A DNA stretch of 64,000 bases from a virus. Taxonomy: Duplodnaviria > Caudoviricetes. Of the stretch, positions 33,818 to 37,194 are shown in pieces. Made by a program: the position numbers and the translations under genes. Positions within the stretch are counted from its first letter, which is position 1, and every line of letters starts with the position of its first letter. Under the pieces are notes generated by a model. That model saw nothing but the letters and a program-made list of their open reading frames with translations, did not search any database and was not told the DNA's origin. The stretch lies in IMG/VR virus record IMGVR_UViG_3300031965_000023, positions 1,362 through 65,361 of that record; one strand, given 5' to 3'.

Positions 33818-34939
33818 ATGCCACAACCATTAAACCCGATTCGACCGGGCACACAAGCAGAATTAACTCGTCAATTAGCAGATACAATTGGCGAAGAAGT
33901 AGTACAGGCGATGGAGGGAGCCTCGTGGGAACACACGCAATCCCCTCCCGTAGCACCAGTAGCACCAGCACAACCGGCCAACCCGGCCGCTGTTCCAAGC
34001 ACTACAGAACAAACACCACAGGCAGCAAGTGAGGCCAACCCCACTCCTGCACCAACAAGTGATGTTCTACCGAATGCACCCGCCACAGATTTCGAACAGT
34101 ACAAAGACCCGACAACCGGGAAGTACTTAGGGAAGTATAATTCTCCCGATGAAATGCTAAAAGGTATGCATTCACTCATCCATTGGGGTAGAGAAGCACA
34201 CGCCCGAGCCGATGGGCTCAATCGCGAAGTTGCTGATCTGCGCCAAAAACTTTCGAGCCCGGTAGTGATGCCGGTTCCGGTACAGCAAGGACAGCCTTCT
34301 GTCTTTCAGACAGTAGATGTTCCGACTGTAAAACTCGATGCAGTGCTATCGAGAGTTAAAGAAAGTGGTGAATTCACACCGGAAGATTTGGGTACGCTGA
34401 AGGAAGGAATCCTTGAAGCAGCGGATCAGATCGCGACAAGAAAAGTAAACGCGAGCAAGTCAGCGGATAAACGCGAGCAGCAAGTGTGGCAAGACGTTGA
34501 TGCACATATGAGCAAGAATTATCCTGATTCTCTCAAATTTGCAGACGAAATGCAACTTTTCGTAGATAGTAACCCAGAAGTAGCTCGTGTCTTCAACAGA
34601 CTTTCGTCTGGTGATACTGCTCAAGATAAGATTGACGGTGTTGCATATGTTTGGAAGGAATTCCAGCGGACGATTGGCGCGGTCAACCCCGCAACTGTAA
34701 CAGAAGAACGTAAACTACTCGCTGCGGGACAAGTACGGCAAGAAGAGGTAGAAGCTGCGCGTGTTCAAGCGGGGCTTGCTCCATCTGCCGCAGGTGGTGT
34801 TCACGAAGCGTCACCGTCAACAGGTGCATCACAAGAACAGGTTCAGGAAGCTGTTCGATACATGAATGTATCTGGTGATGGAAGACTCTGGCGTGAATTA
34901 ACAATTGGAAAAGACCTCAAAGGACCATTCTTTGACTAA
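33818..34939 (+). CDS. putative capsid scaffolding protein
   Basis: Pro/Ala-rich N-terminus, YLGKYNSPDEM, coiled coil; directly before the capsid gene. Confidence 0.6.
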   Translation: MPQPLNPIRPGTQAELTRQLADTIGEEVVQAMEGASWEHTQSPPVAPVAPAQPANPAAVPSTTEQTPQAASEANPTPAPTSDVLPNAPATDFEQYKDPTTGKYLGKYNSPDEMLKGMHSLIHWGREAHARADGLNREVADLRQKLSSPVVMPVPVQQGQPSVFQTVDVPTVKLDAVLSRVKESGEFTPEDLGTLKEGILEAADQIATRKVNASKSADKREQQVWQDVDAHMSKNYPDSLKFADEMQLFVDSNPEVARVFNRLSSGDTAQDKIDGVAYVWKEFQRTIGAVNPATVTEERKLLAAGQVRQEEVEAARVQAGLAPSAAGGVHEASPSTGASQEQVQEAVRYMNVSGDGRLWRELTIGKDLKGPFFD

Positions 34940-34970
34940 TGGTTCGAGGAATAACACGGAGGAATAGCTA

Positions 34971-37194
34971 ATGGCTGCTCCTGGGAATTTTGGTGTTTAA
35001 GTTATTGGACACCTAAAAGTCAGTGGAATGCTGGAAACCTGAGAATGCTTCTCTACCAAATTGGTGACAATGAGAAAGACGCAGGCAATCAGCAGGAAAG
35101 GAAGTTATGAAACCCTCCTCAGAGACTAATGTACTGACCCCCCAAACACGAATTAATGTTCGTGACATTGCATATATAGCGGGATTCATCGACGGAGAAG
35201 GAACGATTAGTGGTACAATTGCGAGTAGTGGTCAACTAGATATTATTGTAACTGCCGCAAATACATGTAAAGAAACTTTAGTCTGGATTCAGAGTAAAGT
35301 TGGTGGAATGCTTTACAATCATAATCGTTCTAATGTAAAAATTCGATGGAAACCTGGGTATATTTGGCGGTGTAGTTCGATCAATAGAATTGAATTACTC
35401 AAGCGCCTTATCCCACACTTGAAGCAAAAACAAAAACAAGCACACAAAGCTCTAGCGATTCTTGGCATGATAAAAACAGGACAAGCAAAAGATCGAATAG
35501 AGCGAGCTATCCAACAACTTCAAGCGATGAATAAAAGGGGAAGATAGAGTCCACGCCAATAGCGATATTGGATTAACGTGATAAATTCGGTGTTACTCCG
35601 GGGGCTGGTGTAAATCGTGAAGATCTTTTAGATCAAATCACAAACGTGGATAAAACAAGGGTCCACGGAAATGTCCGATAAATAGCCTTGGGACACTCCC
35701 TCAATTACTCGGGGGAGAATAAAAACTGCTATATGCTGGAACCCTGTGAATCCAATCTTCCGAGTCGGAACGACCGGGAAAAGAGAAAGGTGCAGGTAAT
35801 CAGCAGGAAAGGCTTTCAAGAATGAAAGAATCCTCAGAGACTAGTACGCAGTTCTCTAAAAGACGTATCAACGTCAGAGATGCAGCTTATCTAGCAGCAA
35901 TGTTAGATGCAGAAGGTTACATTTCTGGCGCGGAAAGATCTAAACGAGAGAATCGTAGTGCAGATGCTCAACTTATGGTGAGAATTTGTAATACTTCTGT
36001 CGTATTGCTCAATTGGTTAAAATCTACATATGGTGGAAGAGAAAGATGGCGGGAACCTAGAATGTGGGGGAAAAAGAGGTTTTATGAATGGGAACCTCTC
36101 CCCGAAGATAGATACCACATTTTCAAAGCGATTCTTCCACATTTAAAGATTAAACGTGATCGAATGCTTTTAGCGATAGGATATCTCAATTCACAACGAT
36201 CAGGTTTACCTGTTGAACAACGAAGAAAATTTATCCGAACGATACAAAAGTTGAATAAGAGATGATACAGTCCATTCCTAGTTGCGAAATTAGGGGAGAT
36301 GGGGTAACGCAAGCGCCTAAAGTACAGGCGAACCACGTGTATCATGAGTGGCTAAAAGACACTCTTGGTACTGTAGACACATCTGGTGATATCGAAGGTG
36401 ATGATTACGCCTATGATCCAACAGACACACCAACCCGTGAGTTTAACATCACAATGATTCTCCGGCAGGACTTAGGAGTTTCTGAAACACAGCGGGCAGT
36501 AAACCCGGCTGGCTTCAAAGACGCCTATGCCTACGAGATTCAAAAGGCAACAAAACGACTAGCAATCAAGCTCGAAAAAGTTGTATTCGCTGCAACAACT
36601 AGCGCAACTGGCTTCACTGCCACCGCTCGTCAGATGAAGAGTTTCCAAGACTTCATCGTAACGAATACTGCGTTTGCAGGAGCAAAAACCGGGACAGTCC
36701 CGGGTACTGCTACCACTGACGGTGTGCTTGATTCGTCTGACTTCAATGGGCTTCTACAAACTATTTATACTAATGGTGGGAATCCCGAGCAGGTATATGT
36801 ATCTCCTGCTGTGAAGCGGCAAGTCAGTTCGTTCACAGTTACACAGCAAAATCGAAATATTGCTGCCATCGACAAGCGACTGGTTTCGGCCATCGACTTC
36901 TATGATAGCGATTTCGGTCTAATTCAGATTGTACTCGACCGTTGGGTACCGGAAAGCACAAATACCACAACTGCAACTGCTTCGGCAACTGCAACTGGTG
37001 GTCAAATGTTCTTCCTACAACGTTCGATCAATCGGCTGGCGTGGCTTCGACCGATGCAGCACTTCCTTGTTGGGAAGCGTGGTGACTCGGTGGCTGGTAT
37101 CGTTGTTGGCGAAGTAACGCTGGAAGTTCTCAACGAGAAGGCTAACGGTCGTATGCGCTCAGTAAACAACAAGAATACTGTCGCGGGTACGTAA
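34971..37194 (+). CDS. major capsid protein (DUF5309/SU10-type), spliced: join(34971-34998, 35581-35651, 35686-35701, 36302-37194), 335 aa
   Basis: Joined exons total 1008 nt and read MAAPGNFGVYKFGVTPGAGVNREDLLDQITNVDPWDTPWVTQAPKVQANHVYHEWLKDTL..., matching the family pattern NREDL.D.I.N..P.DTP....K.......HEW..D.L. Confidence 0.9.
34999..35580 (+). mobile_element. group I intron 1 of capsid gene
   Basis: P1 GGTGTTT/GGACACC with U.G at the splice site; P3 GTCAGT/ACTGAC; P4 TGCTG/CAGCA; P7 GAGACT/AGTCC; P9 CCAATA-GCGA-TATTGG; P9.0 ACG/CGT; ends in G. Confidence 0.93.
35107..35547 (+). CDS. intron-encoded single-motif LAGLIDADG homing endonuclease
   Basis: IAYIAGFIDGEG; lies in the P8 region of intron 1. 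Confidence 0.93.
   Translation: MKPSSETNVLTPQTRINVRDIAYIAGFIDGEGTISGTIASSGQLDIIVTAANTCKETLVWIQSKVGGMLYNHNRSNVKIRWKPGYIWRCSSINRIELLKRLIPHLKQKQKQAHKALAILGMIKTGQAKDRIERAIQQLQAMNKRGR
35652..35685 (+). mobile_element. 34-nt core-less group I-type mini-intron (intron 2)
   Basis: IGS CAAGG-GTCCACG is complementary to the ligated junction CGTGGAT|CCTTG with U.G at the 5' site; terminal G; in-frame TAA; removal restores NVD|PWDTP. Confidence 0.82.
35702..36301 (+). mobile_element. group I intron 3 of capsid gene
   Basis: P1 CTCCCT/GGGGAG with U.G; P10 TTACTC/GGGTAA; P3 ACTGC/GCAGT; P4 TGCTG/CAGCA; P7 GAGACT/AGTCC; P9 CCTAGTT-GCGA-AATTAGG; terminal G at 36301. Confidence 0.93.
35822..36265 (+). CDS. 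intron-encoded single-motif LAGLIDADG homing endonuclease
   Basis: AAYLAAMLDAEG; N-terminus paralogous to the intron 1 ORF. Confidence 0.92.
   Translation: MKESSETSTQFSKRRINVRDAAYLAAMLDAEGYISGAERSKRENRSADAQLMVRICNTSVVLLNWLKSTYGGRERWREPRMWGKKRFYEWEPLPEDRYHIFKAILPHLKIKRDRMLLAIGYLNSQRSGLPVEQRRKFIRTIQKLNKR

What the first reader, a model, noticed from the sequence alone, without database searches (positions are those of the whole stretch)
35652..35685. Core-less 34-nt group I-type mini-intron in the major capsid gene (candidate non-autonomous intron)
Seen in sequence: AAAACAAGGGTCCACGGAAATGTCCGATAAATAG interrupts the capsid frame exactly between NVD and PWDTP. It is 34 nt long, so not a multiple of 3, and carries an in-frame TAA at 35679; retention would give a 42-aa stub. 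It obeys the group I splice-site rules. GTCCACG (35661-67) pairs with the exon end CGTGGAT with U.G at the 5' splice site (P1). The adjacent CAAGG (35656-60) pairs perfectly with the next exon start CCTTG (P10). The intron ends in G. The 12-nt guide is therefore the complement of the spliced junction. P3-P9, the ribozyme core present in both flanking introns, is absent. Established knowledge: group I cores can act on P1 helices supplied in trans. Inference: this is a parasitic guide-only intron spliced by the core of neighbouring intron 1 or 3 (in cis, or as excised RNA), and it could make capsid synthesis depend on accumulated intron RNA. I do not know of a described phage system like this.
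Basis: partly seen in the sequence, partly recalled or inferred. Interest (0 to 1): 0.95.

Follow-up and report, generated by a model that had tools for sequence, protein, structure and literature searches.

The report
Core-less mini-intron in phage capsid gene
A 34-base insert that breaks this soil phage's only capsid gene has the splice-site pairings of a self-splicing group I intron but no catalytic part. It most likely has to borrow the ribozyme of the full intron 16 bases downstream, and I found a second such case in a related phage.

Summary
Bases 35652-35685 interrupt the SU10-type capsid gene exactly between NVD and PWDTP. All three frames are closed, and exact removal restores a 335-aa protein that matches about 60 uninterrupted relatives.

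- **Splice-site signals:** the insert carries a contiguous 12-nt guide, P1 of 7 bp with U.G at the 5' splice site plus P10 of 5 bp (shuffle p about 3e-4). It ends in G and has no P3-P9 core.
- **Tether:** its tail pairs (TGTCC/GGACA) with the 16-nt micro-exon, directly beside P1 of full intron 3. All 16 exon bases are therefore paired.
- **Second case:** related phage contig L010 has a 41-nt mini-intron at the site where our phage has full intron 1. It has a 13-nt guide and an 8-bp tail helix ending 1 nt from P1 of the next full intron downstream (p about 8e-4).
- **Distribution:** minis were seen only in capsid genes that also hold a full intron.
- **Genome state:** the genome is otherwise intact and has a single capsid gene.

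Best reading (about 0.6): a non-autonomous group I intron spliced by the downstream intron's ribozyme. No RNA or read data could be obtained, so splicing itself is not shown. Earlier notes of this scan report similar minis on other DNA in at least 9 genomes. I found no published description.

The parts
34971..34998 (+). Capsid exon 1 (MAAPGNFGV plus the first base of the Tyr codon)
   Evidence: Matches homologue N-termini such as MAAPGNFGVYKFG
34999..35580 (+). Full group I intron 1 (582 nt). The guide GGACACC pairs with exon GGTGTTT. It carries a LAGLIDADG ORF at 35107-35547.
   Evidence: RF00028 28.3 bits; PF00961 LAGLIDADG_1; boundaries set by homology
35581..35651 (+). Capsid exon 2 (71 nt, YKFGVTPGAGVNREDLLDQITNVD). 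Its last 7 nt, CGTGGAT 35645-51, are the exon strand of the mini-intron's P1.
35652..35685 (+). Core-less 34-nt mini-intron. In order: linker AAAA 35652-55, P10 guide CAAGG 35656-60, P1 guide GTCCACG 35661-67, an 18-nt tail 35668-85 and terminal G 35685.
   Evidence: (p about 3e-4); no ribozyme core
35672..35676 (+). Tether strand TGTCC in the mini-intron tail. It pairs with GGACA 35691-95 of exon 3.
   Evidence: It is part of the minimum-free-energy fold. It occurs at this exact place in 0.1% of shuffles.
35686..35701 (+). Capsid exon 3 (16 nt, PWDTP plus the first base of Trp). Bases 35686-90 pair in the mini's P10, 35691-95 in the tether and 35696-701 in P1 of intron 3.
35702..36301 (+). 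Full group I intron 3 (600 nt), the proposed helper ribozyme. Its guide TTACTC-GGGGGAG is at 35705-35717, and it carries an endonuclease-like ORF at 35822-36265.
   Evidence: RF00028 30.7 bits over the whole model. The ORF aligns with LAGLIDADG ORFs of related introns.
36302..37194 (+). Capsid exon 4 (the rest of the SU10-type major capsid protein)
   Evidence: PF17236 E 2.4e-58; 336 homologues

Best explanation
The 34 nt are a non-autonomous group I intron. It keeps only what a substrate needs: a 5' splice site U paired to G in P1, a guide that also aligns the 3' exon (P10), and a terminal G. It has lost the ribozyme.

It most likely descends from a full intron of the same LAGLIDADG-bearing family by loss of the core.

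Proposed mechanism:
- In the pre-mRNA, P1 and P10 form a 12-bp pseudoknotted splint across the junction.
- The tail pairs with the micro-exon (tether) directly next to P1 of intron 3.
- The mini's splice sites are thereby held at the substrate cleft of intron 3's core.
- That core, with GTP in its P7 site, performs the two transesterifications on the mini-intron. It does so before, or alternating with, its own splicing.
- Intron 1 splices on its own.

Shown: the sequence anatomy, its statistics, and its recurrence in a second phage. Inferred: every catalytic step, the choice of helper, and the deletion origin.
For: 1. Exact removal restores a peptide that differs from relatives at 13-17 synonymous but only 1-4 non-synonymous codons of 26. 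That peptide is uninterrupted in about 60 relatives.
2. The 12-bp guide with U.G, plus the terminal G, has p about 3e-4. The contiguous P10-P1 guide has the same layout as in intron 3 and intron 1.
3. The genome is 88% coding, its structural module is intact and it has one capsid gene. The mRNA therefore has to be mended.
4. A second case, L010, has a 41-nt insert between GGT GTC T and AC AAG. Its removal gives MPGTPIGNAGVYKWGL..., as in homologue P0008. It has P1 of 7 bp with U.G, P10 of 6 bp and a terminal G. It sits at the very site where our phage has full intron 1, and its 7-nt guide is the same.
5. The tether prediction was replicated. L010's tail GGTCAACG pairs 8 bp with exon CGTTGACC, 1 nt upstream of P1 of the next full intron (p 8e-4). 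In the window the 5-bp tether abuts P1 of intron 3 (p 1.2e-3).
6. In a blind screen for guide-bearing inserts near intron cores in all loci held, only these two restored a reading frame. Fifteen other hits were ordinary coding sequence.
7. Minis were seen only in capsid genes that also have a full intron.
8. Published work shows that a downstream group I ribozyme can use the distal 5' splice site of an upstream tandem intron (PMC10136302). It also shows that group I ribozymes can excise an internal segment of a separate RNA (PMC2532722).
Against: - There are no RNA data and no read-level check for this locus.
- No other copy of this particular mini-intron exists in IMG/VR, JGI metagenomes or GTDB genomes, and no full-length intron was found at its site. 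There is therefore no covariation test for it.
- A very recent core deletion would leave the same intact guide.
- The bases before the mini's terminal G do not copy those of intron 3 or intron 1, so there is no P9.0 match.
- The minis' sequence similarity to the ends of full introns is not above chance, p about 0.17-0.19.
- The window's tether is only 5 bp, and I noticed it after reading earlier notes.
- No natural case of one group I core splicing a second, core-less intron has been demonstrated.
Confidence: 0.6

Rival explanations
1. It is a dead or minority allele. A recent internal deletion removed the core of a third intron, the capsid gene of this molecule is broken, and the assembly captured a defective or complemented variant.
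For: - A fresh deletion would leave P1, P10 and the terminal G intact without any selection.
- No second sample shows this mini.
- Reads could not be inspected.
Against: - The rest of the 65-kb genome is intact, with one capsid gene.
- A capsid-less lytic phage should not reach consensus frequency.
- An independent mini in a 72%-identical phage has the same anatomy.
- The tail-to-exon helices beside the downstream P1 in both cases are not expected from a random deletion.
Confidence: 0.15
2. The mini-intron is spliced by group I chemistry, but in trans. The catalyst is accumulated excised intron 1 or intron 3 RNA, not the tethered downstream intron.
For: - Excised group I introns stay catalytic, and cores recognise P1 by backbone contacts (established knowledge).
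- Multi-piece trans systems work in vitro (PMC2588497, PMC2532722).
Against: - The tether beside the downstream P1 in two phages argues for delivery in cis.
- Docking of a free P1 hairpin in trans is weak (established knowledge).
Confidence: 0.1
3. Removal depends on proteins. A nuclease cuts at both borders and the phage's RtcB (or its Rnl2-type ligase) joins the exons, as in tRNA or XBP1/HAC1-type splicing.
For: The phage encodes RtcB (PF01139, E 5e-110) and other RNA-repair genes (earlier same-genome notes).
Against: - There is no bulge-helix-bulge. The 5' exon has no partner in the 3' exon for the outer helix.
- The features that are statistically non-random are the group I-specific ones.
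- The RNA-repair genes sit with the tRNA arrays, their usual context.
Confidence: 0.06
4. The insert is handled during translation (gene 60-type bypass or frameshifting) and stays in the mRNA.
For: It is a short, stop-containing gap in an essential late gene. A stable structure surrounds the gap.
Against: - No GAT or GAC codon lies directly before CCT, so there is no matched landing codon.
- The codon after the take-off point is AAA, not a stop.
- All three frames are closed, and TAG immediately precedes CCT.
- None of the 18 phage tRNAs is a suppressor.
- L010's mini shows no matched codons either.
Confidence: 0.03

Closest known systems
Tandem group I introns with short exons: Staphylococcus phage Twort orf142 (three introns, 23-nt exon) and the Coxiella 23S rRNA intron pair; engineered tandem Tetrahymena introns (PMC10136302)
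   Same: Several group I introns are packed into one gene and separated by micro-exons. There is evidence that one intron's ribozyme can use another intron's splice site (exon skipping, use of a distal 5' splice site).
   Different: In those cases every intron has its own complete core, and the cross-use gives an aberrant exon-skipped product. Here one 'intron' has no core at all, so cross-use would be obligatory and productive.
Degenerate group I introns of lichen-fungus nuclear rDNA (PMC8527467; from my own knowledge, very small ones of about 55-80 nt in Arthonia, Porpidia and Phialophora)
   Same: They are group I-derived introns that have lost catalytic parts and cannot self-splice, yet are absent from the mature RNA.
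   Different: They are eukaryotic, sit in rRNA genes and average 233 nt. The removal machinery is unknown and presumed to be host proteins. No neighbouring helper intron or tether has been described. The present case is in a phage mRNA, is 34 nt long and lies 16 nt from a full intron.
Trans-excision-splicing ribozymes engineered from Pneumocystis, Tetrahymena and Candida introns (PMC2532722)
   Same: A group I core removes a short internal segment ending in G from an RNA and ligates the flanks.
   Different: They are engineered. The guide sits on the ribozyme, not in the excised segment, and the ribozyme is a separate molecule.
Deletion derivatives of the group I intron in the Streptococcus thermophilus phage lysin gene (Foley et al. 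2000, listed in the references of PMC11878797; content from my own knowledge)
   Same: Natural phage group I introns occur as internally deleted variants.
   Different: As far as I recall, those deletions remove ORF sequence and leave a ribozyme. I did not read the paper.

Membership tests
Group I intron (RF00028), autonomous self-splicing | 5' splice site after U, paired as U.G in P1 with an internal guide | tested here: met
   CGTGGAT/GTCCACG, 7 bp, U35651.G35661, -9.2 kcal/mol
Group I intron (RF00028), autonomous self-splicing | The guide also pairs with the start of the 3' exon (P10), and the intron ends in G | tested here: met
   CAAGG/CCTTG is contiguous with P1; G35685 is the last base; joint guide p about 3e-4
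Group I intron (RF00028), autonomous self-splicing | Catalytic core P3-P9 with the G-binding site in P7 | tested here: not met
   Only 18 nt follow the guide. cmscan at E<=1 matches introns 1 and 3 but nothing in 35652-35685.
Group I intron (RF00028), autonomous self-splicing | Self-splicing with GTP/Mg2+ | not testable with these tools
   No RNA run was listed. A wet experiment is needed.
Non-autonomous (core-less) mini group I intron beside a full intron (class noted by this scan, unpublished) | Frame-breaking insert of tens of nt whose exact removal restores a conserved protein, with a full group I intron close downstream in the same gene | tested here: met
   Window: 34 nt, intron 3 lies 16 nt downstream. 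L010: 41 nt, full intron 80 nt downstream.
Non-autonomous (core-less) mini group I intron beside a full intron (class noted by this scan, unpublished) | The tail of the mini pairs with the exon next to P1 of the downstream intron | tested here: met
   5 bp with gap 0 (p 1.2e-3) in the window; 8 bp with gap 1 (p 8e-4) in L010
Non-autonomous (core-less) mini group I intron beside a full intron (class noted by this scan, unpublished) | The bases before the terminal G match those of the helper (shared P9.0) | tested here: not met
   Mini ..AATAG versus intron 3 ..AGATG and intron 1 ..ACGTG. L010 mini ..ATAAG versus its helper ..AGCTG.
Translational bypass element (T4 gene 60 type) | Matched take-off and landing codons, and a stop right after take-off | tested here: not met
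   TAG precedes CCT, the codon after GAT is AAA, and the only downstream in-frame Asp codon would delete the conserved PW
Bulge-helix-bulge / endonuclease plus RtcB intron | Two 3-nt bulges around a 4-bp helix, with an exon-exon outer helix | tested here: not met
   No complement of the 5' exon end lies downstream of CCTTG in exon 3. RtcB itself is present.
Degenerate group I introns of lichen rDNA | Located in nuclear rRNA genes of fungi and removed by host machinery | tested here: not met
   The host gene is a phage capsid mRNA

The most novel reading that the evidence does not exclude
Phage structural genes harbour a class of guide-only, ribozyme-less group I introns. These dock by a short tether helix beside P1 of the next full intron and are spliced by that intron's core. 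This would be a natural 'one ribozyme, two introns' system and an RNA-level counterpart of non-autonomous transposons. They arise repeatedly by core loss wherever two introns lie close together.
Probability: 0.5. Interest if true: 0.9.

Novelty: new variant of a known kind. Interest (0 to 1): 0.78.

Why it matters
Group I introns are defined by carrying their own ribozyme. A 34-nt intron that supplies only the substrate helices, and depends on a neighbour's core, would differ from that definition in several ways.

- It would be the smallest group I-type intron by far, and the first natural case of obligatory ribozyme sharing.
- It would show how selfish introns decay under complementation.
- It would explain gene calls that look broken in metagenomic phage genomes. 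This capsid was called as a 310-aa ORF starting inside intron 3.
- It gives a compact, directly testable system of about 1.4 kb of RNA for how a group I core selects among competing P1 helices.

Practically, annotation pipelines miss such genes altogether.

Tried and rejected
**Reads and RNA**
- No RNA holder was listed.
- Read laying on the likely source run X1 and on a second soil run X2 gave no cover over 35600-35720.

The contigs of the N-terminally truncated homologues P0004, P0048, P0058 and P0109 could not be fetched.

**Searches that found nothing relevant**
- blastn of the region against cultured phages gave no match.
- A pattern for any 10-45-nt insert at NVD|PWDT gave only chance hits in IMG/VR and none in JGI metagenomes.
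- A pattern for an intron at the intron 3 site in JGI metagenomes gave 29 chance hits.
- The exact mini-intron was absent from IMG/VR and GTDB genomes.
- A pattern for minis at the intron 1 site found only L010 and one chance hairpin.
- The one relative in GTDB genomes (L166) is uninterrupted.
- Endonuclease-based searches gave distant or no relatives. The 5-protein alignment was too diverged to scan with.

**Tests that were not met**
- Single-deletion alignment of either mini to the ends of full introns was not above shuffles. The deletion origin therefore rests on the shared site and architecture, not on sequence similarity. My earlier impression that GTCCACG...GATAAAT copies the 3' end of intron 1 is not established.
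- No P9.0 match to either helper.

**Readings rejected**
- Assembly collapse. Introns 1 and 3 share at most 14 identical bases, and the 34 nt hold no repeat long enough for a k-mer join. This is inference.
- Frameshift or readthrough. All frames are closed and no suppressor tRNA is present.
- Bypass and BHB (see Membership tests).

**Literature**
- A search for 'mini-intron' with 'group I', 'ribozyme' and 'phage' gave 0 papers.
Full report
**What is there**

The window is nearly all of a 65,361-bp single-contig phage genome. It has an SU10-type portal and capsid, RtcB and 18 tRNA genes.

The capsid gene (PF17236, E 2.4e-58) has hundreds of homologues of about 340 aa. Their N-termini read, for example, MAAPGNFGVYKFGFLAGSGANREDLLDLITNVDPWDTPWVTQAPKV. 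In the window this stretch is encoded in four pieces:
- exon 1, 34971-34998
- exon 2, 35581-35651
- exon 3, 35686-35701
- exon 4, 36302-37194

Joined, they give a clean 335-aa protein.

The long interruptions are genuine group I introns of one family:
- Intron 1 is 34999-35580 (582 nt). Intron 3 is 35702-36301 (600 nt).
- cmscan aligns both to the whole RF00028 model, at 28.3 and 30.7 bits. This is below the gathering score, largely because an ORF is inserted.
- Each carries a roughly 146-aa ORF. One reaches the Pfam threshold for LAGLIDADG_1. The other aligns with it and with the ORFs of related introns.

**The 34 nt**

Bases 35652-35685 lie exactly between GAT (D) and CCT (P) of the invariant NVDPWDTP.
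- All three frames are closed, and retention gives a 42-aa stub.
- The insert contains a contiguous 12-nt guide. GTCCACG pairs with the exon end CGTGGAT, with U.G at the splice site. The adjoining CAAGG pairs with the next exon's CCTTG. The insert ends in G.
- A junction-spanning guide this long arose in 61 of 200,000 shuffles.
- The layout (splice site, short linker, P10 guide, P1 guide, A-rich tail) is that of introns 1 and 3. Their P1 hairpins have similar energies of -9.6, -10.3 and -11.8 kcal/mol.
- Only 18 nt follow the guide, so there is no P3-P9 core.

**Is it an artefact or a dead gene?**

I could not check reads. The likely source run and a second soil run gave no cover at the site. 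The second run, from another study and year, does hold identical 151-nt unitigs over 34900-35158.

An assembly collapse is unlikely on principle, because there is no repeat long enough to join across (inference).

The genome is 88% coding. Its structural module is tightly packed and intact, and there is only one capsid gene.

The exon peptide around the insert differs from relatives at 13-17 synonymous but only 1-4 non-synonymous codons of 26 (L010 is left out because its window runs into an intron). The gene therefore looks maintained, and its mRNA has to be repaired.

**Relatives**

Of 62 close capsid loci from IMG/VR, all but three are uninterrupted through this region.
- L010 and L052 have a full intron of the same family at PWD|TP.
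- L038 has one a few bases after our site.

More family members sit at other capsid positions (L109, L121, L131). Together with our two full introns, the first ~40 codons are an intron hot spot.

No other copy of this 34-nt element was found in IMG/VR, JGI metagenomes or GTDB genomes. Nor was a full intron found at its site or at the intron 3 site.

**A second, independent mini-intron**

I screened every locus held for short inserts near intron-core motifs that begin after T, end in G, and carry a contiguous P1 (6 bp or more, U.G) plus P10 (4 bp or more) guide. A coding check followed.

Only two candidates restore a reading frame: the window's 34 nt and a 41-nt insert in L010 (3297-3337). The other 15 distinct hits were ordinary coding sequence.

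L010 is a contig from another sample, and its capsid is 72% identical to ours.
- The insert lies between ATG CCC ... GGT GTC T and AC AAG TGG. Removing it gives MPGTPIGNAGVYKWGLVAGAGVNREDLL, as in homologue P0008.
- Its guide ACTTGT-GGACACC gives P10 of 6 bp and P1 of 7 bp with U.G. It ends in G and has no core.
- It occupies the very position, inside the Tyr codon after GV, where our phage has full intron 1. It also has that intron's 7-nt guide.

This is the best evidence that minis are core-less counterparts of full introns. Sequence similarity of either mini to full-intron ends is not above chance, so the deletion origin remains an inference.

**The tether**

Earlier notes of this scan on other genomes suggested that mini-intron tails pair with the exon beside P1 of the next full intron. 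I tested this here.
- In the window, TGTCC (35672-76) pairs with GGACA (35691-95). This helix is part of the minimum-free-energy fold.
- It fills the gap between the mini's P10 partner (35686-90) and the exon strand of intron 3's P1 (35696-701). All 16 exon bases are therefore paired.
- In L010, the tail's GGTCAACG pairs 8 bp with CGTTGACC at exon positions 65-72 of 80. That is 1 nt before the 7-nt P1 strand of the downstream full intron, and 58 nt of exon loop out.
- A helix at least this long within 2 nt of the downstream P1 arose in 0.12% (window) and 0.08% (L010) of tail shuffles.

The L010 result is an independent test of a prior prediction.

**Mechanism proposed**

The P1/P10 splint holds the two exon ends together. 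The tether stacks this substrate next to P1 of intron 3. Intron 3's core then performs GTP attack at U35651 and exon ligation at G35685|C35686, and also splices itself.

Two lines of published work make this chemically reasonable:
- A downstream ribozyme can use a distal upstream 5' splice site in tandem introns (PMC10136302).
- Group I ribozymes can excise internal segments ending in G (PMC2532722).

All catalytic steps are inferred. Points against are the lack of a P9.0 match, the short tether in the window, and the absence of any RNA evidence.

**Rivals**

The rivals are a dead allele, trans action by free intron RNA, nuclease plus RtcB, and ribosomal bypass. They are set out in their own section. 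None explains the group I-specific, statistically non-random features and their recurrence as well.

**Comparison and novelty**

The closest published situations are:
- Twort orf142 and Coxiella tandem introns, where every intron has a core and cross-use causes exon skipping (PMC10136302)
- degenerate lichen rDNA introns, which cannot self-splice and are removed by unknown host machinery (PMC8527467)

I found no paper describing a core-less group I intron in a phage.

This scan has noted similar minis on other DNA in at least 9 genomes. Those notes are unchecked by me, except for the tether idea, which held here. I rate this a new variant of a known kind, of high interest, with splicing still to be shown.

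Noticed in passing
L010:3297-3337 (IMG/VR contig 3300037484_000442): A 41-nt core-less mini-intron in a related phage's capsid gene. It sits at the site of our intron 1 and has an 8-bp tail helix next to P1 of the full intron 80 nt downstream.
   Followed up: yes
window 34971-35701; L010, L038, L052, L109, L121, L131: The first ~40 codons of this capsid family are an intron hot spot. At least five insertion sites lie within about 35 codons (GV-Y, D|P, P-W, D|T, P-W), and further sites lie near codons 55 and 114. All are used by one LAGLIDADG-bearing intron family.
   Followed up: partly
window 35107-35125 and 35822-35840: The endonuclease ORFs start inside the ribozyme. The conserved SSET motif at their N-termini is encoded by the P7 strand CCTCAGAGACT, so protein and ribozyme core share sequence.
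   Followed up: partly
L132 (IMG/VR 3300032053_000045), L115, L125: These contigs hold three to seven closely spaced copies of the P7' motif GATATAGTCC, or two core motifs about 480 nt apart. This suggests arrays of small tandem group I introns in single genes. The host genes were not identified.
   Followed up: no
window 34900-35158: A 2025 soil metagenome from a different study (run X2) holds 151-nt unitigs identical to exon 1 and the start of intron 1. The same or a very close phage therefore recurs six years later, but the mini-intron site was not covered.
   Followed up: partly
proteins P0004, P0048, P0058, P0109: These capsid homologues are called with truncated N-termini, starting at DPWDTP, LLDQ, NVDPW or after QAPKV. 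They may hide further introns or minis.
   Followed up: no
window 36262-37194: The gene caller's capsid product (P0001, 310 aa) starts at an ATG inside intron 3. It misses the first 39 residues that the exons encode and carries intron-derived residues in their place, which is how such split genes are mis-annotated.
   Followed up: yes
protein P0077: This homologue's N-terminus is read in another frame up to LLDQ. A single extra base just before the LLDQ codons would fit, and is probably a sequencing error rather than an intron.
   Followed up: partly
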